A stretch of 6,158 bases of DNA from positions 1-6,158 of the IMG/VR virus record IMGVR_UViG_3300020041_000069. One strand, written 5' to 3'. Below the pieces are notes generated by a model. The model saw nothing but the letters and a program-made list of their open reading frames with translations. It was not told the origin of the DNA and searched no databases. A program made the translations under genes and the position numbers. Within the stretch, counting starts at the first letter, position 1. The number at the start of each line of letters is the position of its first letter. This document shows, piece by piece, positions 1-5,641 of the stretch. The stretch is from a virus.

Positions 1-121
1 AAGTCGGAAAAATTATTCAATTTCTCCTCAAATGACGACGGGAGACCCTTGTGCCTCCGACAAATTCGCCATCTCTATTGTAAATTTCCTTCTCTTCGTC
101 ATAACCAACGGAAACAGGCTG
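1..121. repeat. Terminal redundancy, copy 1 (overlap from assembling a circular molecule)
   Basis: By direct reading, bases 1-121 (aagtcggaaaaattattcaattt...ggaaacaggctg) are identical to 6038-6158. Confidence 0.95.
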
Positions 122-1279
122 CTTCGTTATGGCCGTGCCGGCGACAGCCATAGCGCCAACCAAGGCAGTTCTAGCCAAGCTGTAACCAAACGCATTCTTT
201 TGAGATCGATTTTGAAACCAGCGACCTGAGAGGCCTTGTTGACCTTCCGAGGCTGCGAGACCCATTAATTTCTGATGAATCTGACGACCTGTCATCTTTA
301 TTGTATTACCAGTAGGCTTACCTTTCTCGTCAACTTCTGGAACGTCGACCTCAGAGTCCCAGTTCAGGGAAAACCACTCACGGAGATCAGCTAGGTTGAC
401 CTCACGTATTTCAGACTCAACATTTAAGACATCACCGGAGGCGGCAGACTCGTAAGCAGCCGCGTAATCTCGAGCTATTTGAGCGGCATAAACAGAATCA
501 AAGTATTTATCGTTGTACTTCTTAATCTGATTCGCTTCCTCAACGTGCTTCGAATACATGGCAACAAAATCTTGAAACTTATACGTAGCCATGAGATCAG
601 CGTATTCAGCATCGGCTGCGTGGATGTCAGCCAAAGCGCGATTAAGGCGAGTTAGTTCAGAAACATTGTTAATATTATGCTCTAAAGACTTCTTCTCCAA
701 CTCGTCCATTTCCTTTCGCCAATCAGCACTATGAGTATTGCCTCTCATAAGGGCAGCCTCAGCGTTATCACGATTGGCAGCAGCGTCGTTACGATCAACG
801 GACGAACGGGCAAGCATATTCTGCGCAATAGCTGTAGGATCACCGGGAACAAAAGAGCCGGGGCCGACAGGAGCGCCACCGGAAGGGCCAGAGGCGGAAG
901 GCGTAGATACAGAACCGCCCGACATCGTGGCATTAACGCCAACACCGGAAGAACCAAGTACGGCGGCAGGGGTCACACCAGCCTTCATGTAGCGGTCGAA
1001 AACCTTCGTAGGATCATTGTATGCATTCTCGTAATCAAACTGCTTCTGCCAATTAGCATAGGAAAGTTCAGACTGCTTCTGCATCTGCTCGAGAGCATAC
1101 TTTTGTTGGAGCTTCATCTGTTTTTGCTGAAATCTCCACTGGCGACGAGCGTTCATGCCGCCAAAAAGTTGACCTAAAAAGCCATTGATTAGACCGTTAG
1201 TACCAGTAGAGGCAGCGGATTCGCCGAGGGCACGACCAAAAGAAGCGGCGCCGGCGGCAGCAGCAACGGGAATAGCCAT
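17..1279 (-). CDS. VP2: VP2-type minor capsid / DNA pilot protein (420 aa)
   Basis: ATG at 1279-1277, TGA at 19-17. The N-terminus is Ala/Gly-rich and hydrophobic (MAIPVAAAAGAASFG...). A Gln/Lys-rich helical stretch follows (RRQWRFQQKQMKLQQKYALEQMQKQSELSYANWQKQFDYENAYNDPTKVFDRYMKAGV), which is typical of microvirus VP2/H pilot proteins. Next come a Gly/Ser/Pro linker (aa ~108-147) and a long helical, acidic region. The position after the capsid gene fits the VP1 -> VP2 -> VP4 cyclic order. Confidence 0.8.
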   Translation of the reverse strand: MAIPVAAAAGAASFGRALGESAASTGTNGLINGFLGQLFGGMNARRQWRFQQKQMKLQQKYALEQMQKQSELSYANWQKQFDYENAYNDPTKVFDRYMKAGVTPAAVLGSSGVGVNATMSGGSVSTPSASGPSGGAPVGPGSFVPGDPTAIAQNMLARSSVDRNDAAANRDNAEAALMRGNTHSADWRKEMDELEKKSLEHNINNVSELTRLNRALADIHAADAEYADLMATYKFQDFVAMYSKHVEEANQIKKYNDKYFDSVYAAQIARDYAAAYESAASGDVLNVESEIREVNLADLREWFSLNWDSEVDVPEVDEKGKPTGNTIKMTGRQIHQKLMGLAASEGQQGLSGRWFQNRSQKNAFGYSLARTALVGAMAVAGTAITKQPVSVGYDEEKEIYNRDGEFVGGTRVSRRHLRRN

Positions 1280-1280
1280 A

Positions 1281-1472
1281 CTACATGTGCGTTAAATTGT
1301 TAGAGCGAATAATGTAATCAACGCGAACAGTGTCGACGTGAACGCCGCTACGCTGCATCCTAGCTTGAGCGGCACATGAGGTAAGAAAAAAGGTGGCCAA
1401 GGCAGCAATAATAGACGAAACAAGTGTCCAAAAAGCCTTTGATTTATAGAATGGTTGTTTAACGTCTGACAT
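1281..1472 (-). CDS. Small predicted lipoprotein (63 aa; mature part about 31 aa), function unknown
   Basis: ATG at 1472-1470, TAG at 1283-1281, only 1 nt before the VP2 ATG. The sequence MSDVKQPFYKSK-AFWTLVSSIIAALATFFL-TSC-AAQ... has a Lys-rich n-region, a roughly 18-residue hydrophobic core and the lipobox L-T-S-C. The Cys is residue 33 (codon 1376-1374). This is a classic signal peptidase II signature. Confidence 0.6.
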   Translation of the reverse strand: MSDVKQPFYKSKAFWTLVSSIIAALATFFLTSCAAQARMQRSGVHVDTVRVDYIIRSNNLTHM

Positions 1473-1498
1473 AAGATTAGAAATTTAGGGGAAGCTAC

Positions 1499-1554
1499 GG
1501 TGCCGCACCCTCACTTCGTTCGGGGCGGTTCTCCGAACCGCGAAATGCGTCACC
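1499..1554 (-). other. Compound GC-rich stem-loop in the 230-nt intergenic region
   Basis: On the coding strand, GGTGACGCA (1554-1546) pairs with TGCGGCACC (1507-1499) with one mismatch. This encloses a perfect 7-bp hairpin, GCGGTTC-GGA-GAACCGC (1541-1525), flanked by TTCG/CGAA pairing. It lies in the 5' leader of the lipoprotein/VP2 gene pair. Confidence 0.5.
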
Positions 1555-1593
1555 TCGCCACAATGGTGTAAACAATTGAATAAAGAACGATAG

Positions 1594-1670
1594 AAAAATA
1601 CGCGGCCTCTCCTGCAGTCGTTACCAATAACCTTTCAGCAATTCACGAACTCTTGCAGAAGGGGTCCGCG
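1594..1670 (-). terminator. Candidate long imperfect hairpin plus T-run (possible terminator after the VP4-VP1-ORF98 block)
   Basis: On the coding strand, CGCGGACCCCTTCTGCA (1670-1654) pairs with TGCAGGAGAGGCCGCG (1616-1601). That gives about 15 pairs with 1 bulge, 1 mismatch and 1 G-U. TATTTTTCTA (1600-1591) follows. The apical loop is large (~35 nt), so this is not a textbook terminator. Confidence 0.3.
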
Positions 1671-1702
1671 CACGTAGCATATATCGTCAAGTAAAGAGGG
1701 TA

Positions 1703-1999
1703 CTATTTTTCTTCAGGATTAGAGGATTTTGTGGCAGGCCTCGACTTATCAAGCTGAGAATCAATCAATTCCTGACCGACTTCGAGGCCATCAAACTTAT
1801 CCATACGAGAAAACGAATTAGGATCGAAATCAATTTCAGGATTAAACCTTTCACCCTTCTCGAAATCAGAAGGTTCTGCCACTACATCCGGACGGCCGGG
1901 AAGAACGTCGACGGAACCGGAACCGTCGAGAACAGAAAGAATGCGTTGACCACGAGAAACGTAAGCTGGCGGGTCTTGTAATAACCAATCAAGAGGCAT
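1703..1999 (-). CDS. Small acidic protein (98 aa), possible internal scaffolding (VP3-like) protein
   Basis: ATG at 1999-1997, 11 nt after the VP1 stop; TAG at 1705-1703. By my count it has about 20 D/E versus 11 K/R and no hydrophobic segment. A same-strand gene directly after the capsid gene suggests an assembly or scaffold role, but I see no diagnostic motif. Confidence 0.45.
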   Translation of the reverse strand: MPLDWLLQDPPAYVSRGQRILSVLDGSGSVDVLPGRPDVVAEPSDFEKGERFNPEIDFDPNSFSRMDKFDGLEVGQELIDSQLDKSRPATKSSNPEEK

Positions 2000-2010
2000 A
2001 AGCGTAAATA

Positions 2011-3801
2011 TTAGCGATTAGACAACCGAGTTGCAAAAGTTTTGTTAACCAAATTCTTCTTTTGAACGGAATAGGAGAGATTGACAAAGAAATTATCTTC
2101 CAAATTAGACGCAAACGGAGAATTCACTTGGCTTATATCCGTAAACAAAAGCGAGTAATACGTATTATAGCTTGCAGACAAAACACGCTGCTGAACCCAA
2201 TAAGAATAAAGAGGAACATTGGATTTAGAGGTTTGAAAGCGAGACAACTGACCGAGAACCTCGTCATAGGAAGACCTAAACTCGTTAAAGCAAGGTTCGT
2301 AAGCCACGGCTTCTGAAGCGGATGTAGTTCCAAAACCGAACTGGAATCCCGGAACGTCTTGATATCCAATATCGTTGTAGATAGGATTGAAGTAATCGGC
2401 ACCGGTATAGTGAAGATAATCAGGGTAAACACCAGCCCAATAATAAACAGGTCGAATACTCAACATATCAATCATATAACCAGGCTCACGGAAATAATAA
2501 GATTGTCGCCGTCCTAACCGTTCATTAAAGGCGATAGCACCGCCCTGCTGCCCTAGAGGACCAGAAATATTCGGACTACCAAAATTACTTGGCCCTGCTT
2601 GATTCATGACAATCTGCACATTGACCGTCTGCGAAGCGCTGAATAGAAGTTTAGGGCGATCGACATGCTCGATTTTGGAAGCAAAGAACGTTTCCAACCA
2701 ATCACTGTAGCGACTACCGCCAGCGCCGAGCAGGTCCTTGTATTCTTGAAGGCGAGAAGCAATGGCCAACTGAGGAATGGTCGAAACACCAGCCATAGAA
2801 ACGCCCTCGGAAGAGCCGACAGGGAGCAGTCTACTATAACGATCGGGGTTCGAGGGTATAACAGCCATCGGATGAGCAACAAGAAAGGCGCCGAGATTAG
2901 TAACGGTCGTATCGGAAGGGACGACAGCAAACTGACTTGCAGGACCGGCAGACGACAATGTCAAGTTTCCAGGGTAAACAGTAGAAACGGGATAGCCGTT
3001 CTTAGAAGCAGAAATCGGAGTACCAAGGTCGGATAAAGCAATCTGCGAGAAAAGGTTTCCTCGGTTATACGTATTGTTCGAGGAAGGCACTGCCGAAGGA
3101 TAGAACTGACTCTCAAAATACGCATCCAGAAACTCAAGATTACCGAACCTCTGATTAAAGAATGACGACTCCGAGCGAAACTGAAGAACAGCGTACGAAG
3201 TACCAGCGGCGTTGGGCACAAAATACCAACTAGAAGGCCAGGCGAAAGAATAAATGCCCCACTGGGAATAGCTGTAAAAATTACGAACGATATCCCAATA
3301 GGCGAGATAAGAATCAGCGTTGCACCAACCCAAGGGATACGCCAACTGAGCTGCTGTGAGATTGGAAGTTACCGGAACGTTGCTCGAAGTCGGAGTCGGT
3401 ATAGAAGCGGGGATGATACGCAACCAACGAAGTAGCGAGTTGGAATAAGGATAATTGTTGGTCGTAAATTCATATGAGCCAGTAGACGAAGCGGCAACAA
3501 AATTCAAACTCAAATCGTTCATATCAAACTTACTGCTATTCGTTCTCATCTCGGGGTGATACAATTGAAGCGGCACCCAGAAACGATGAAGTCGAACAGT
3601 GTAAGGATTGAATGTCGGAACAGCGAGCGGGTTGCTACGAACGTCAATGCCCTGCTCGATAGAGACGCGATCGCGGGCATTAATAAAATCAATCCGCACC
3701 GGATATAGAATACCCGGTGTGCACGTAAAGGCCTTGCTTTCAGGAACATCATAGCGAGAGTAGCCATTTACAGCGTGTGAAATAAAAGGTTGTTTTCCCA
3801 T
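2011..3801 (-). CDS. VP1: Major capsid protein VP1 (F-protein family), 596 aa
   Basis: ATG at 3801-3799, 3 nt after the VP4 stop. It is the largest ORF. It carries blocks characteristic of microvirus capsids: RLHRFWVPLQL near the N-terminus, LQEYKDLLGAGGSRYSDWLETFF (the GSRY-type block) and EPGYMIDMLSIRPVYYW. Confidence 0.93.
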   Translation of the reverse strand: MGKQPFISHAVNGYSRYDVPESKAFTCTPGILYPVRIDFINARDRVSIEQGIDVRSNPLAVPTFNPYTVRLHRFWVPLQLYHPEMRTNSSKFDMNDLSLNFVAASSTGSYEFTTNNYPYSNSLLRWLRIIPASIPTPTSSNVPVTSNLTAAQLAYPLGWCNADSYLAYWDIVRNFYSYSQWGIYSFAWPSSWYFVPNAAGTSYAVLQFRSESSFFNQRFGNLEFLDAYFESQFYPSAVPSSNNTYNRGNLFSQIALSDLGTPISASKNGYPVSTVYPGNLTLSSAGPASQFAVVPSDTTVTNLGAFLVAHPMAVIPSNPDRYSRLLPVGSSEGVSMAGVSTIPQLAIASRLQEYKDLLGAGGSRYSDWLETFFASKIEHVDRPKLLFSASQTVNVQIVMNQAGPSNFGSPNISGPLGQQGGAIAFNERLGRRQSYYFREPGYMIDMLSIRPVYYWAGVYPDYLHYTGADYFNPIYNDIGYQDVPGFQFGFGTTSASEAVAYEPCFNEFRSSYDEVLGQLSRFQTSKSNVPLYSYWVQQRVLSASYNTYYSLLFTDISQVNSPFASNLEDNFFVNLSYSVQKKNLVNKTFATRLSNR

Positions 3802-3804
3802 AAA

Positions 3805-4875
3805 TTAAATAATTAGTTGAAGTTTATAATGATCCTGCCAGAATTGAAAAACATCCAAATCCAACCAGGTAGGAGGATCGAAATCCGGCATCCTACAAGA
3901 AGAAGCGGCGAAACGCATCATTTGCTTCTGCTCCCACGTATACGTCTCTCTACGGGATACGGAGGAATGGAGATTGAACCGCTCAACGCACAGAGACACA
4001 ATACGCTTAACCAGAGGAGACTTGCTAAAGCGTGCATAAGAATCAGCAGCGGTAATCGAGCGAGAAACTTCGTCTTCAGGTTTAAGATATTTAAGATAGT
4101 ATCGAGGAATCGAGTAGTTATAATTGATACGCTTCTCAAAGTCAAAGTAAGACCACGACGAAGTACGGGCAGAAGGACGAGGCATATAGCCAAGAAAATC
4201 GCCAACGCCAGCAGATACGAATTTTCGCGTATAACGGCGATGTTGGAGGAGGCAAGATAAAGGTGTAGACTTTCCATCTATAACGATATTTTGATTGGAT
4301 ATTTCTGCAGGGTTAAATTGAATTTGCTTAGTAACGTATTTGACGACGTATCGCGCACGTTGATGCGTGCCTTTCGCAAGCCAAACAAAACCAAGGTCAC
4401 GGACAGCTGCCCGAATTTCATTGTACAAACAATCGGTTCCAAAGAGAAAGCCGTGAAAATGAAGGCGAGGCGCCGACCCTGTCTCTGGATGGGTGCCAAA
4501 CTCCTGGAAAAATGCATGCTTAAAGGAGTGGCCGATCTTATGGCGCACTCGCTCATTCCATCGTCTAATAAACGCAGAAGGATTTCGCAGTGCTTCATCG
4601 TAATATTTAGGTGATATGGTTATTGTAATAAAAATAGCCTGTCGAGATTCGGCCTTACAACGAGCAAGCTCGCGCTCGAGACGGACGAACCAATCATTGC
4701 GTTGGCGGCGTAAGCACTCCTCGCACCTTCCGCAAGGGACCATGAGCCACTGGCGAGCGATGTCCCAGGGGCGAAGAGCCAAGGCGGACTTCGCAACATC
4801 AGAACCATTACGACAGGGATTCTTCTTGTCGAAATAGCGACGATTGCGTATCCATATGGGCGACAAACAAGGCAT
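3805..4875 (-). CDS. VP4: Replication initiator VP4 (rolling-circle HUH endonuclease, phiX A-protein superfamily), 356 aa from the first ATG
   Basis: RCR motif I is AIFITITI. Motif II (HUH) is RLHFHGFLF, with H-F-H encoded by 4461-4453 (cattttcac on the coding strand). Motif III is the double tyrosine YVVKYVTK (4350-4327). There is also a Cys cluster, PCGRCEECLRR. The ORF-track start at 4896 is a TTG. The first ATG (4875-4873) gives MPCLSPIWIRN... and overlaps the upstream ORF stop as TAATG. Confidence 0.93.
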   Translation of the reverse strand: MPCLSPIWIRNRRYFDKKNPCRNGSDVAKSALALRPWDIARQWLMVPCGRCEECLRRQRNDWFVRLERELARCKAESRQAIFITITISPKYYDEALRNPSAFIRRWNERVRHKIGHSFKHAFFQEFGTHPETGSAPRLHFHGFLFGTDCLYNEIRAAVRDLGFVWLAKGTHQRARYVVKYVTKQIQFNPAEISNQNIVIDGKSTPLSCLLQHRRYTRKFVSAGVGDFLGYMPRPSARTSSWSYFDFEKRINYNYSIPRYYLKYLKPEDEVSRSITAADSYARFSKSPLVKRIVSLCVERFNLHSSVSRRETYTWEQKQMMRFAASSCRMPDFDPPTWLDLDVFQFWQDHYKLQLII

Positions 4876-5075
4876 TATAGGAGACTTCTGAGGCAATCGA
4901 ACTTGATAGCAGGATGATCAAGACGACAGCGAATAAGATAATCACTAGCAGGTTCTTCATCGGAAAACCAAGCGATAACAACTCGTTTCTTGCCGCGATA
5001 TGCTCCAATGGAAAAGCGGTAGGGAACACTGTCAATCACAGGAGAAAAACGAGGACGAAAATCAAACTTATCCAT
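4875..5075 (-). CDS. Small hypothetical protein (66 aa), translationally coupled to VP4
   Basis: The first in-frame ATG is at 5075-5073 (MDKFDFRPRF...). Its TAA stop (4877-4875) shares one base with the VP4 ATG (TAATG). The ORF-track start at 5198 is a GTG, and that extension runs through GC-rich hairpins, so the short form is preferred. No recognisable motif. Confidence 0.45.
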   Translation of the reverse strand: MDKFDFRPRFSPVIDSVPYRFSIGAYRGKKRVVIAWFSDEEPASDYLIRCRLDHPAIKFDCLRSLL

Positions 5076-5272: not shown

Positions 5273-5317
5273 CCTCGAAGTTAGAGAACTCTTCCACCGA
5301 GAGGACGAGTTACTACT

Positions 5318-5641
5318 TTACTTCCTCTTCCTTTCTTCTTTCGGCGCGCTTTCATCGCAATCAAGGTTAAAATCAAACATGAGGACAAGAGTATTGTCGA
5401 AAAAATCAACTCGGAAATGAGGTAAACTACCACAGGTGGTAACAAGATCGAAGACTTCCGAATGATCGACATAGAGCGAATCGCTAATGGACGAACTCTG
5501 CAAAAAACGCGCGATAGGGGTATCTTTAATGGCGCTGAAGGGGAGGGTTTCGAATTGATTATCCTTAAGGTAACCTACCTGAACGAAATCAATTTTAAGA
5601 GCCGGGTTAACTCGACGAATAACAACATGAATCTGCGTCAT
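5318..5641 (-). CDS. Hypothetical protein (107 aa), second gene of the accessory cassette
   Basis: The first ATG is at 5641-5639, 11 nt after the upstream stop; the ORF-track start at 5692 is a TTG. It begins MTQIHVVIRRVNPALKIDF... and ends in an acidic then basic tail, DCDESAPKEERKRK. The TAA is at 5320-5318. No motif I can assign. Confidence 0.55.
   Translation of the reverse strand: MTQIHVVIRRVNPALKIDFVQVGYLKDNQFETLPFSAIKDTPIARFLQSSSISDSLYVDHSEVFDLVTTCGSLPHFRVDFFDNTLVLMFDFNLDCDESAPKEERKRK

What the first reader, a model, noticed from the sequence alone, without database searches (positions are those of the whole stretch)
1281..1472. Tiny lipoprotein gene packed 1 nt upstream of the pilot-protein gene: candidate lysis or exclusion factor
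The 63-aa ORF has a textbook signal peptidase II signature: a Lys-rich n-region, the hydrophobic core AFWTLVSSIIAALATFFL and the lipobox LTSC with Cys33. Cleavage would leave a mature lipopeptide of about 31 residues (CAAQARMQRSGVHVDTVRVDYIIRSNNLTHM). Its stop codon lies 1 nt before the VP2 ATG, which suggests co-expression with a late structural gene. phiX-like microviruses lyse through the membrane protein E. For most non-phiX microviruses, as far as I know, the lysis mechanism is undefined. Elsewhere, small phage lipoproteins act as outer-membrane spanin components or as receptor-blocking superinfection-exclusion factors (Llp or Cor type). A lipoprotein in a 6-kb ssDNA phage is therefore an attractive candidate for either role.
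Basis: partly seen in the sequence, partly recalled or inferred. Interest (0 to 1): 0.7.

Follow-up and report, generated by a model that had tools for sequence, protein, structure and literature searches.

The report
Conserved small lipoprotein gene in microviruses
A 63-codon gene just upstream of the DNA-pilot gene of this 6-kb gut ssDNA phage is real and strongly conserved, carries a lipoprotein export signal with an invariant cysteine, and belongs to an undescribed family of microviruses that includes Alistipes prophages; it probably acts on the host envelope, in lysis or in blocking reinfection, but which of these is not settled.

Summary
Window 1281-1472 (minus strand) is a 63-aa ORF with a basic N-region, a 19-20-residue hydrophobic core, the lipobox LTSC (Cys33) and a stop 1 nt before the VP2 ATG.

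The motif alone is weak: it matches 13% of shuffled genomes. Conservation decides. The ORF sits at the same place in about 80 related genomes, Cys is invariant, dN/dS is 0.07 with near-saturated synonymous sites, and position -1 is S/G/A in 54/54 divergent family representatives.

The family has no Pfam, PHROG or NCBIfam match. All family members I checked lie on microvirus contigs or in microvirus prophages, including one in an Alistipes montrealensis isolate.

Unexpectedly, the signal/TM helix (SKKFWTLVAAIVAALAAFF) is the most conserved part. The roughly 30-aa mature peptide occurs in at least four unrelated versions.

The module is 69-75% identical between lineages whose VP1, Rep and VP2 are 23-29% identical.

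Function is inferred only. My best guess (about 0.4) is a lysis or release factor built like a colicin lysis protein. Superinfection exclusion (about 0.3) is not excluded.

A rival or partner lysis candidate turned up: an unannotated 119-aa membrane-protein gene overprinted in Rep (3918-4277).

The parts
1281..1472 (-). Small prolipoprotein gene: 63 codons plus a TAG stop
   Evidence: ORF and translation. There are 320 homologues. It is syntenic in about 80 relatives. dN/dS is 0.067.
1437..1472 (-). n-region, codons 1-12 (MSDVKQPFYKSK), with K5, K10 and K12
   Evidence: Read directly from the sequence. K12 is invariant in 56 divergent representatives. dN/dS is 0.03.
1377..1436 (-). Hydrophobic signal/TM helix plus lipobox, codons 13-32 (AFWTLVSSIIAALATFFLTS)
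   Evidence: This is the most conserved segment family-wide: W15 and F29 at 100%, F14 and A24 at 98%. Position -1 is S/G/A in 54/54 representatives. Synonymous sites vary freely (pS 0.57), so the constraint is on the protein.
1374..1376 (-). Cys33 codon (TGT), the predicted lipidation and signal peptidase II cleavage site
   Evidence: Invariant in all 120 listed homologues, in the relatives' ORFs recovered, and in 56 representatives clustered at 50% identity.
1284..1373 (-). Rest of the predicted mature lipopeptide, codons 34-63 (AAQARMQRSGVHVDTVRVDYIIRSNNLTHM), with the motif GVH-x-DTVRVDY
   Evidence: dN/dS is 0.05 within the clade. In other lineages it is replaced by at least three unrelated sequences.
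1277..1283 (-). Junction TAG-T-ATG: the lipoprotein stop, 1 nt, then the VP2 start
   Evidence: The spacing of -1 is kept in nearly all type-1 relatives; it is -2 in type-2.
1473..1702 (-). Upstream non-coding region that travels with the gene. 1593-1702 is the part of the conserved element (1593-1715) that lies in this region; 1473-1592 is an insertion of about 117 nt found in a subset of genomes.
   Evidence: the conserved element is in 84 loci at a median of 92.7% identity, and the insertion is in 14 other loci (15 hits counting the window), 11 of them at 96-99% over 112 nt or more. In prophages L088, L090 and L100 the host junction lies just upstream of the lipoprotein gene.

Best explanation
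SHOWN. Window 1281-1472 (minus strand) is a genuine protein-coding gene under strong purifying selection. It belongs to a previously undescribed family found here only in gut microviruses and their prophages. It is the first gene downstream of the main non-coding region. Its product has every sequence feature of a bacterial prolipoprotein. The hosts of related members are Alistipes (Bacteroidota), which are diderms with the Lgt/Lsp pathway.

INFERRED mechanism, step 1. The precursor inserts through Sec with its basic N-terminus in the cytoplasm. Lgt lipidates Cys33 and signal peptidase II cleaves before it. This yields a 31-residue lipopeptide facing the periplasm; it has no acidic surface-export motif after the Cys. 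It also yields a 32-residue signal peptide left in the inner membrane.

INFERRED mechanism, step 2. The Ala-rich signal/TM helix is more conserved than the mature part, and the mature part is exchangeable. I therefore propose that the helix itself is a functional element, through self-association or by binding a conserved host membrane protein.

INFERRED mechanism, step 3. The gene is an envelope-destabilising lysis or release factor built like a colicin lysis protein (BRP): a small prolipoprotein with a functional signal peptide. It may act together with the overprinted multi-TM protein at 3918-4277, which would compromise the inner membrane. No phage endolysin is present, so host autolysins or a block of wall or envelope biogenesis would have to do the rest.
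For: Gene reality:
- 320 homologues.
- Same position in about 80 relatives, although VP2 identity ranges from 40% to 91%.
- dN/dS 0.067 with pS 0.62, and codon position 3 is variable in 61 of 63 codons.

Lipoprotein features:
- The PS51257-type rule is met.
- Cys is 100% conserved and position -1 is S/G/A in 54/54 representatives.
- An nr entry, DAU60727.1, is already labelled 'lipoprotein'.

Host:
- The module lies in an integrated microvirus prophage in Alistipes montrealensis kh20 and in an Alistipes MAG.
- The five main window genes (VP1, VP2, Rep, lipoprotein, orf98) lack Shine-Dalgarno motifs; only two minor ORFs with doubtful TTG starts have one.
- Lgt and Lsp are universal in bacteria (PMC11573676).

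Helix as functional core:
- Per-column conservation is highest in the helix.
- The module is 69-75% identical between lineages whose VP1, Rep and VP2 are 23-29% identical.

Lysis role:
- No endolysin, E homologue or other recognisable lysis gene is present.
- The literature states that lysis of non-phiX microviruses is unknown unless an M15 peptidase is present (PMC3394797, PMC7062461, PMC9239249).
- The microvirus genomes with an M15 peptidase that were examined (phiHBP1, L093, L094, L096) lack the module.
- All 89 module-bearing loci lack M15.
- The pattern 'conserved TM helix plus replaceable C-terminal part' parallels phiX174 E and the stable BRP signal peptide (own knowledge).
Against: - No experiment exists, and there is no homology to any lysis protein.
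- The M15-versus-lipoprotein exclusivity is confounded by lineage and by how the loci were sampled.
- A better-fitting classical lysis candidate exists in the same genome. It is the overprinted 2-3-TM protein with a basic tail at 3918-4277, so the lipoprotein may not be needed for lysis.
- The gene is the first one downstream of the main non-coding region, and the first gene at the prophage junction. That position suits an early or lysogen-expressed exclusion gene better than a lysis gene.
- The h-region is long (19-20 residues).
- Position -3 is often T, and some type-2 members have E at -2 (LESC). Signal peptidase II processing is therefore not certain for all members.
- AlphaFold gave no confident fold for the mature part.
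Confidence: 0.4

Rival explanations
1. Superinfection-exclusion or receptor-masking lipoprotein of the T5 Llp / phi80 Cor type. The lipid-anchored short beta-hairpin peptide sits in the periplasmic leaflet of the outer membrane. There it inactivates the phage receptor or the DNA-entry route. This would protect infected or lysogenic cells, and would protect progeny from adsorbing to debris.
For: - It has the small-lipoprotein architecture.
- Related members lie in integrated Alistipes prophages, where the gene is the first one next to the host junction and directly downstream of the non-coding region.
- The mature peptide comes in several unrelated versions behind a constant targeting signal, as expected for a specificity-determining part.
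- The gene neighbours the pilot gene VP2. Host-range mutations of a Bacteroides microvirus map to the capsid and pilot proteins (PMC13064476).
- Carriage of a gokushovirus confers superinfection immunity by an unknown mechanism (PMC7062461).
Against: - No homology to Llp or Cor.
- The strict sequence conservation of the signal helix is not explained by this role.
- The same mature peptide is kept across phages whose VP1 (68-90% identity) and VP2 (40-91% identity) differ widely. It therefore does not track the likely receptor-binding determinants.
- It is universally present in about 80 complete genomes of a 6-kb phage, which is more than expected for a dispensable gene.
Confidence: 0.3
2. The protein is not lipidated. 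It is a bitopic inner-membrane protein whose N-terminal TM helix is the effector, a phiX174 E-like 'protein antibiotic' that binds a conserved membrane enzyme of wall synthesis. The Cys and the small residues before it would be conserved for helix packing rather than for signal peptidase II cleavage.
For: - The helix is the most conserved part, while the C-terminal part is replaceable.
- The hydrophobic stretch is 19-20 residues, which is TM-length.
- Both flanks are basic.
- E at -2 in some members is atypical for a lipobox.
- The Ala-rich small-xxx-small pattern suits helix-helix packing.
Against: - The exclusive S/G/A at -1 next to a 100% invariant Cys, across at least four unrelated downstream sequences, is the signature of a lipobox.
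- No homology to E, and no conserved Pro in the helix (and the sequence itself).
- It has its own ORF rather than being overprinted.
Confidence: 0.12
3. It is an accessory or regulator of the overprinted membrane protein (3918-4277), which would be the true lysis effector. The lipoprotein would time lysis in an antiholin-like way, or complete outer-membrane disruption after the inner-membrane lesion, in a two-component system without an endolysin as described for corticovirus PM2 (own knowledge).
For: - Both genes co-occur in every lineage examined.
- Type-2 lipoprotein phages carry the most divergent versions of the overprinted protein, at 53-58% identity against 61-88% in all but one type-1 genome (L065, 52%).
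Against: - That co-variation is explained equally well by shared ancestry. L039 looks like a swap of VP1 only.
- There is no evidence of physical interaction.
- A 31-residue mature peptide is too short to span the periplasm.
Confidence: 0.12
4. A chance ORF with a chance lipobox, and not a gene.
For: The lipobox rule alone matches 13% of shuffled genomes, and it also matches a non-conserved ORF in this same window.
Against: dN/dS is 0.067 over 64 distinct sequences with near-saturated synonymous sites. The start, Cys and stop position are invariant. There are 63 family clusters at 50% identity.
Confidence: 0.01

Closest known systems
Colicin lysis proteins / bacteriocin release proteins (Pfam PF02402 Lysis_col; e.g. 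pCloDF13 BRP, ColE1 Kil)
   Same: Both are very small prolipoproteins: a precursor of some tens of residues and a mature lipopeptide of about 30. They have a signal peptidase II lipobox. The signal peptide itself is conserved, and in BRP it is stable and biologically active. They act as a single small gene that makes the envelope leaky or lytic. The BRP properties are from my own knowledge.
   Different: No sequence similarity. This gene is phage-borne, not at the end of an SOS-controlled colicin operon. The host is Bacteroidota rather than Enterobacteria, and dependence on the outer-membrane phospholipase is unknown. The mature part here is exchangeable between lineages.
T5 Llp and phi80/N15 Cor superinfection-exclusion lipoproteins
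   Same: They are small phage-encoded lipoproteins that act from the periplasmic side on an outer-membrane receptor, and their genes lie next to host-recognition genes.
   Different: No sequence similarity. The mature part here is half the size (31 versus about 60 residues). The signal helix is conserved far beyond what targeting needs. The mature peptide does not co-vary with VP1 or VP2.
phiX174 protein E (single-gene lysis 'amurin', Microviridae)
   Same: Same virus family. It is a small membrane-targeted protein in which an N-terminal hydrophobic helix is the conserved part and the C-terminal part tolerates replacement.
   Different: E is not a lipoprotein, is overprinted in gene D, and has an essential Pro in its helix. 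There is no homology. The overprinted gene at 3918-4277 resembles E's genomic arrangement more closely than the lipoprotein does.
Outer-membrane spanin subunit (lambda Rz1) and unimolecular spanin (T1 gp11)
   Same: They have an N-terminal lipoprotein signal on a small phage protein. The 180-220-aa 'long forms' in other lineages have a lipobox at the N-terminus and a short hydrophobic stretch plus a basic tail at the C-terminus, which is reminiscent of a u-spanin layout.
   Different: The window protein has no C-terminal TMD. There is no i-spanin partner, no holin-endolysin cassette and no Pro/Cys-rich periplasmic part. The hydrophobic stretch of the long forms is only 11-17 residues, and their basic tail matches a J-like DNA-binding peptide.

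Membership tests
Bacterial prolipoprotein (signal peptidase II substrate) | Positively charged n-region | tested here: met
   K5, K10 and K12 are present. K12 is invariant and position 13 is K in 77% of 56 representatives.
Bacterial prolipoprotein (signal peptidase II substrate) | Uncharged hydrophobic h-region of about 7-22 residues | tested here: met
   A13-S32 is 19-20 residues with no charge. This is at the long end of the range, and it is also TM-length.
Bacterial prolipoprotein (signal peptidase II substrate) | Lipobox [LVI][ASTVI][GAS]-C with an invariant Cys | tested here: met
   The window has L-T-S-C, and the PS51257-type rule is met. Family-wide, Cys is 100% conserved and -1 is S/G/A in 54/54. 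However, -3 is T in 21/54, and -2 is E in some type-2 members.
Bacterial prolipoprotein (signal peptidase II substrate) | Dedicated predictor call (SignalP 6 / LipoP) | not testable with these tools
   Neither program is available here.
Bacterial prolipoprotein (signal peptidase II substrate) | Diacylglyceryl modification and globomycin-sensitive cleavage | not testable with these tools
   This needs an experiment.
Colicin lysis protein / BRP (PF02402) | Sequence match to the family profile | tested here: not met
   No Pfam hit at E<=0.1. There is no NCBIfam hit either.
Colicin lysis protein / BRP (PF02402) | Tiny prolipoprotein with a mature peptide of about 30 residues | tested here: met
   The precursor is 63 aa and the predicted mature peptide is 31 aa.
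Colicin lysis protein / BRP (PF02402) | Last gene of an SOS-regulated colicin operon | tested here: not met
   It lies in a microvirus genome between the non-coding region and VP2.
Colicin lysis protein / BRP (PF02402) | Causes quasi-lysis through outer-membrane phospholipase activation | not testable with these tools
   This needs an experiment.
Two-component spanin, outer-membrane subunit (Rz1-like) | Partner i-spanin gene (N-terminal TMD plus a periplasmic coiled coil), embedded, overlapping or adjacent | tested here: not met
   The neighbours are the non-coding region and VP2. No overlapping conserved ORF exists, since pS is 0.62 within the gene.
Two-component spanin, outer-membrane subunit (Rz1-like) | Part of a holin-endolysin lysis cassette | tested here: not met
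   No muralytic enzyme is detectable in the window. No M15 homologue was found.
Two-component spanin, outer-membrane subunit (Rz1-like) | Pro-rich mature domain with a periplasmic Cys for intermolecular disulfides | tested here: not met
   The mature peptide has no Pro and no Cys other than Cys33.
Unimolecular spanin (T1 gp11-like) | N-terminal lipobox plus a C-terminal TMD in one polypeptide | tested here: not met
   The window protein ends in the polar sequence RSNNLTHM. For the long forms in other lineages the test is inconclusive, because their hydrophobic stretch is only 11-17 residues.
Llp/Cor exclusion lipoproteins | Sequence match to known families | tested here: not met
   No PHROG or Pfam hit.
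Llp/Cor exclusion lipoproteins | Gene adjacent to the receptor-recognition gene and co-varying with it | tested here: inconclusive
   It is adjacent to VP2. The short C-terminal tail (NNLTHM versus NNFSLP) tracks the VP2 type. The core of the mature peptide stays constant across VP1 at 68-90% and VP2 at 40-91% identity.
Llp/Cor exclusion lipoproteins | Blocks adsorption or DNA entry of the cognate phage | not testable with these tools
   This needs an experiment.
phiX174 E-type single-gene lysis protein | Homology to E (Microvir_lysis) | tested here: not met
   No Pfam hit.
phiX174 E-type single-gene lysis protein | N-terminal TM helix is the conserved functional part and the C-terminal part is tolerant | tested here: met
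   This is shown by the per-column conservation across 56 representatives. It is an analogy only.
phiX174 E-type single-gene lysis protein | Overprinted within another gene | tested here: not met
   It has its own ORF, and its synonymous sites are free to vary.

The most novel reading that the evidence does not exclude
The gene is the first lipoprotein-type single-gene lysis protein of an ssDNA phage. Its unusually conserved, Ala-rich signal peptide would be the warhead. It could be a stable membrane peptide, or a poorly released signal peptidase II / Lol substrate. Either way it would jam lipoprotein maturation or trafficking, or another conserved envelope-biogenesis enzyme, in Bacteroidota. 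The exchangeable lipidated hairpin would only tune localisation. This would define a new class of phage 'protein antibiotic' against gut Bacteroidales and explain how these abundant microviruses lyse their hosts.
Probability: 0.15. Interest if true: 0.85.

Novelty: new variant of a known kind. Interest (0 to 1): 0.6.

Why it matters
How microviruses other than phiX174 get out of their hosts is a long-standing gap (PMC3394797, PMC7062461). These phages are among the most abundant in mammalian guts.

This work turns a motif seen by eye into a defined gene family that can be tested:
- It is under strong selection.
- It is tied to a cultivable host genus. An Alistipes montrealensis isolate carries a prophage with the module.
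- It has an unusual property, a signal peptide more conserved than the mature protein, which points to a specific membrane target.

The work also exposes a hidden overprinted membrane-protein gene in Rep. Together the two genes give concrete candidates for lysis and/or exclusion in Bacteroidota microviruses. If either is a protein antibiotic, its target would be of practical interest.

Tried and rejected
- AlphaFold2 on a 54-sequence alignment gave one long helix, with low confidence beyond residue 35. I judged it uninformative and did not send it to fold search.
- Pfam, PHROGs, NCBIfam and a PDB profile search gave no significant match. The only hits were sub-threshold ones to the signal-peptide parts of the YgdI/Lpp models.
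- PADLOC gave weak hits to PDC-M02A (E 0.003-0.013) for only 3 of 25 family members. I treated these as chance or lipobox similarity.
- Rfam, ARAGORN, promoter/terminator scans and DNA/RNA folding of the upstream region gave nothing significant.
- The first genome-contig scan, with VP1, found no prophage. The scan with the lipoprotein alignment did.
- The 100-aa forms in the database are N-terminal over-extensions into the conserved non-coding region. The window and many relatives have a stop there.
- The 'similar to VP2' annotation over the ORF in MG945680 is an out-of-frame long-ORF artefact, not a fusion.
- The apparent absence of the gene in L061 is because the contig ends in the non-coding region.
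- The second lipobox match at 5281-5472 is a non-conserved extension of a 24-aa basic peptide gene.
- Co-variation of the lipoprotein type with other genes was inconclusive because of linkage and shared ancestry.
- The M15-peptidase-versus-lipoprotein exclusivity is real in the sample but confounded by lineage.
- Literature searches found no paper on a microvirus lipoprotein, and no single-gene lysis lipoprotein.
- The Cascales colicin review was not held in the library, so BRP properties are cited from memory.
Full report
**What the window is.** The 6158-nt window is a complete microvirus-like genome with all genes on the minus strand:
- Rep/VP4, 3805-4896. The real start is probably M8 at 4875.
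- Major capsid protein VP1, 2011-3801.
- An acidic 98-aa ORF, 1703-1999.
- A 230-nt non-coding region, 1473-1702.
- The ORF in question, 1281-1472.
- The pilot protein VP2, 17-1279.
- Several small ORFs between VP2 and Rep.

GenBank relatives are faecal Microviridae from pigs, rodents, lemurs and other animals. According to the protein look-up, the window itself is a JGI/IMG contig.

**Checking the observation.** The stop (1283-1281) is separated by one base from the VP2 ATG (1279-1277). The gene is on the minus strand. It satisfies a PROSITE PS51257-type rule, which I wrote from memory.

The motif alone proves little. In 300 shuffles, 13% of shuffled genomes contained a matching Met-started ORF. 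The window itself has a second match at 5281-5472, which turned out to be a non-conserved extension.

**Is it a gene?** Yes.
- A search of 5.8 billion proteins found 320 homologues. The 120 listed are 81-97% identical, and many lie on contigs of about 6 kb.
- In 80 IMG/VR relatives fetched through VP1, plus two GenBank genomes, the ORF is present in all but three truncated or chimeric contigs.
- In nearly all type-1 genomes for which the junction could be read, the stop falls 1 nt before the VP2 ATG; in type-2 genomes the gap is 2 nt. This holds although VP2 identity to the window ranges from 40% to 91% and VP1 identity from 68% to 90%.
- Over 64 distinct DNA sequences, pS is 0.62, pN is 0.084 and dN/dS is 0.067. 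The values are similarly low in the N-region (0.03), the hydrophobic region (0.05) and the mature region (0.05). Only the last six codons are relaxed (0.26).
- Third codon positions vary in 61 of 63 codons. The constraint is therefore on the protein, not on an overlapping DNA element or a second reading frame.
- The 100-aa database versions are gene-caller extensions into the conserved upstream DNA. The window and many relatives have a stop there.

**The family.** A profile search of 1.84 billion cluster representatives found 63 clusters at 50% identity. No Pfam, PHROG, NCBIfam or PDB family matches. Every member whose context I examined lies on a microvirus contig or in a microvirus prophage. 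In GenBank, 47 microvirus records contain a homologue. It is annotated 'hypothetical protein' or not at all, and once it was wrongly absorbed into an out-of-frame 'VP2' feature. One nr entry (DAU60727.1) is labelled 'MAG TPA: lipoprotein'. I found no paper that discusses it.

**The unexpected anatomy.** I aligned 56 representatives.
- The conserved core is the 'signal peptide', S-K-K-F-W-T-L-V-A-A-I-V-A-A-L-A-A-F-F. K12, W15, F29 and C33 are at 100%, F14 and A24 at 98%, and T16 at 95%.
- Position -1 is S, G or A in 54 of 54 representatives. Position -2 is mostly T, V, A or S. Position -3 is T or L.
- Downstream of the Cys, conservation falls. At least four unrelated mature sequences occur:
  - ...GVH-x-DTVRVDY-x-x-RS (the window type);
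  - TTRHYVVQSASSIKSGDTTRTTITYEQIGNFKRP (L001, L002, L039, L067, L068, L097);
  - ATSTTLTVRGAQVDSLDFNRTVQF;
  - SRSVLTFRGQGDVEFRYQG.
- All four show short alternating patterns that suggest a beta-hairpin. That is my inference. AlphaFold gave only a low-confidence helix.
- An alternative N-region and helix (MNIKALLKSKKFWTLIAAVVSALAAFFLSSC) is also found joined to the window-type mature peptide. The two halves therefore recombine as modules.

Ordinary lipoprotein signal peptides are the least conserved part of their proteins (established knowledge). Here the reverse holds. Between the window and the lineage that contains the Alistipes prophage, the module is 69-75% identical. VP1, Rep and VP2 are only 23-29% identical over partial alignments. 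Either the module is under extraordinary constraint, or it moves between microvirus lineages, or both.

**Host and context.** A scan of 185,579 species genomes with the family alignment found the module in two places:
- Alistipes montrealensis kh20, on an 840-kb scaffold. The module is followed by Rep, VP1, a 112-aa ORF and VP2, which makes it an integrated microvirus.
- An uncultured Alistipes MAG.

Two further prophage junctions show the same layout: L090, flanked by Rce1-like and S41 peptidase genes, and L100, next to a 4HBT gene. In all three prophages the lipoprotein gene is the first phage gene after the host junction.

In the circular genomes the gene is always the first one downstream of the main non-coding region. 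The unit 'non-coding region plus lipoprotein' sits before VP2 in the window's clade and after VP2 in the others. The five main window genes (VP1, VP2, Rep, the lipoprotein gene and orf98) have no Shine-Dalgarno motif; only two minor ORFs with doubtful TTG starts have one. This fits a Bacteroidota host (established knowledge). Lgt and Lsp are present in all bacteria (PMC11573676). After the Cys there are no acidic residues, so the Bacteroidota surface-export signal, as I remember it, is absent. The product should therefore stay on the periplasmic side.

**Function: evidence that bears on it.**

1. *Other lysis genes.* The window has no recognisable muralytic enzyme and no E homologue. The literature says that lysis of non-phiX microviruses is unexplained except where an M15 peptidase was acquired (PMC3394797, PMC7062461, PMC9239249). 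The only cultured Bacteroides microvirus, phiHBP1, has an M15 peptidase (PMC13064476) and lacks the module, as do L093, L094 and L096. None of the 89 module-bearing loci has an M15 homologue. This is suggestive, but lineage and my sampling confound it.

2. *Analogy from the helix.* The pattern 'conserved hydrophobic helix, replaceable remainder' is what is known for phiX174 E. A conserved and biologically active signal peptide is known for the pCloDF13 bacteriocin release protein, which is also a tiny lipoprotein. Both statements are from my own knowledge; the review I tried to consult is not held.

3. *Evidence against a lysis role.* The gene's position, first after the non-coding region and at the prophage edge, is more typical of an early or lysogen-expressed exclusion gene. 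Exchangeable mature peptides behind a constant targeting signal look like a specificity determinant.

4. *Evidence against simple receptor-matched exclusion.* The same mature peptide is kept across widely different VP1 and VP2 types. Only its last few residues track the VP2 type, as expected from linkage.

5. *A competing candidate.* While looking for other membrane proteins, I found that the 119-aa ORF at 3918-4277, in the +1 frame within Rep, is open in 75 of 82 relatives. Synonymous diversity in Rep falls from 0.434 outside the overlap to 0.185 inside it (Mann-Whitney p = 5e-22), while amino-acid diversity in Rep rises. VP1 shows no such dip. The product has two or three hydrophobic segments and a basic C-terminal tail, which is holin-like or E-like. 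Homologous +1-frame ORFs occur in L001, L002, L086 and L087, and shorter TM ORFs at the same place in L083 and L088. Only five database proteins correspond to it, so it is essentially unannotated. It could be the lysis effector, or the partner of the lipoprotein.

**Verdict on mechanism.** The steps up to 'exported, probably lipidated, envelope-acting small protein whose signal helix is itself under sequence-specific selection' rest on comparative evidence. I hold them with high confidence: about 0.97 for the gene and about 0.8 for signal peptidase II processing.

The biological role is inferred.
- I rank a lysis or release role with BRP-like architecture first, at about 0.4. It may act together with the overprinted membrane protein.
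- Llp/Cor-like exclusion comes second, at about 0.3.
- An unlipidated E-like TM effector and a regulator role each get about 0.1.

The spanin idea fails its defining features. There is no partner gene, no endolysin, no Pro/Cys-rich periplasmic part and no C-terminal TMD.

**Unexplained.** In roughly 40% of family clusters the module is the N-terminus of a 180-220-aa ORF lying directly upstream of Rep. Its middle is S/T/P/L-rich, poorly conserved, and overlapped by a more protein-like ORF in another frame. Its C-terminus is a conserved basic tail...SRRGGRRGKxRPKxKTIPLGGSHL.

In the window's clade the same tail is a free-standing 24-aa gene with its own invariant Met, MKARRKKKGRGSKVVTRPLGGRVL (5281-5355). 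It resembles the small basic DNA-packaging proteins of microviruses, phiX J and gokushovirus VP8 (own knowledge).

I could not decide whether the long ORF is translated as one polypeptide, which would give a u-spanin-like layout. The alternative is that the tail is made separately, for example from GTG or TTG codons seen in L088 and L083.

**Novelty and score.** This is a new, sequence-unrelated variant of a known kind, the small phage or plasmid envelope lipoprotein. It occurs in a virus family where none has been described, and it has an atypical conservation pattern. Interest is 0.6. A specialist would want to test it, because it bears directly on the open question of microvirus lysis and exclusion in gut Bacteroidota and because a cultivable lysogen exists. 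The function is still unproven, and a second candidate gene competes for the lysis role.

Noticed in passing
window 3918-4277 (minus strand), inside Rep (3805-4896): An unannotated overprinted gene in the +1 frame of Rep. It encodes 119 aa with 2-3 hydrophobic segments and a basic C-terminal tail (holin-like or E-like). It is open in 75/82 relatives. Rep synonymous diversity is 0.185 inside the overlap against 0.434 outside (p=5e-22). Homologous +1-frame TM ORFs occur in distant lineages. Only 5 proteins in a 5.8-billion-protein database correspond to it.
   Followed up: partly
window 5281-5355 (minus strand): A 24-aa, highly basic peptide gene, MKARRKKKGRGSKVVTRPLGGRVL. Its Met is present in nearly all of the roughly 80 relatives, and stops lie at variable positions just upstream. 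It is probably the J/VP8-like DNA-packaging protein. The 63-aa ORF listed at 5281-5472 is a non-conserved extension that happens to contain a lipobox-like LSSC.
   Followed up: partly
L083 1512-2114; L084 3262-3804; L088 6977-7585: In other microvirus lineages the lipoprotein module is the N-terminus of a 180-220-aa ORF directly upstream of Rep. That ORF ends in the same J-like basic tail. Its low-complexity middle is overlapped by a more protein-like ORF in another frame (for example L084 3438-3761). Whether this is one polypeptide, a frameshift product or nested genes is unresolved.
   Followed up: partly
window 1473-1592: An insertion of about 117 nt immediately upstream of the lipoprotein ATG. 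It hits 14 other loci: 11 at 96-99% identity over 112 nt or more (L004, L010, L020, L037, L055, L056, L072, L076-L078 among them), L002 at 89%, and partial matches in L006, L031 and L061. That is more conserved than the flanking genes, and the element is absent from most relatives. It gave no tRNA, Rfam or significant folding signal.
   Followed up: partly
window 1593-1715: The most conserved non-coding DNA of the clade, found in 84 loci at a median of 92.7% identity. It contains an imperfect long hairpin (GCGCGGACCCCTTCTGCA ... TGCAGGAGAGGCCGCG). It is a candidate origin, promoter or attachment region. The folding z-score is not significant.
   Followed up: partly
L088 (Alistipes montrealensis kh20, locus 6977-11793); L090 2107-7296; L100 1228 onward: These are integrated microvirus prophages in Alistipes and related genomes. 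The lipoprotein gene is the first phage gene after the host junction in all three.
   Followed up: partly
window 17-1279 versus loci L003-L082: There is strong mosaicism. Genomes with VP1 at 86-90% identity to the window carry VP2 at anywhere from 40% to 91% identity. The last residues of the lipoprotein (NNLTHM versus NNF[ST]LP) track the VP2 class, which points to recombination breakpoints near the gene junction.
   Followed up: partly
L090 7201-7296: A 31-aa ORF after VP2 in an Alistipes-type prophage encodes a single TM helix with a basic end, MYSVLYLLAILFVLAYPFLLVWWIYYQKRKK. It is another small membrane peptide of unknown role.
   Followed up: no
window 3805-4896: The mechanical Rep ORF starts at a TTG. 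Comparison with relatives (MPCLSP..., MACFSP...) suggests the true start is the ATG at 4875.
   Followed up: no
window 1281-1472 product, residues 23-59: There are weak PADLOC hits (E 0.003-0.013) to several PDC-M02A models, a candidate-defence-system component of about 170 aa. They cover the lipobox and part of the mature peptide, and only 3 of 25 family members hit.
   Followed up: partly
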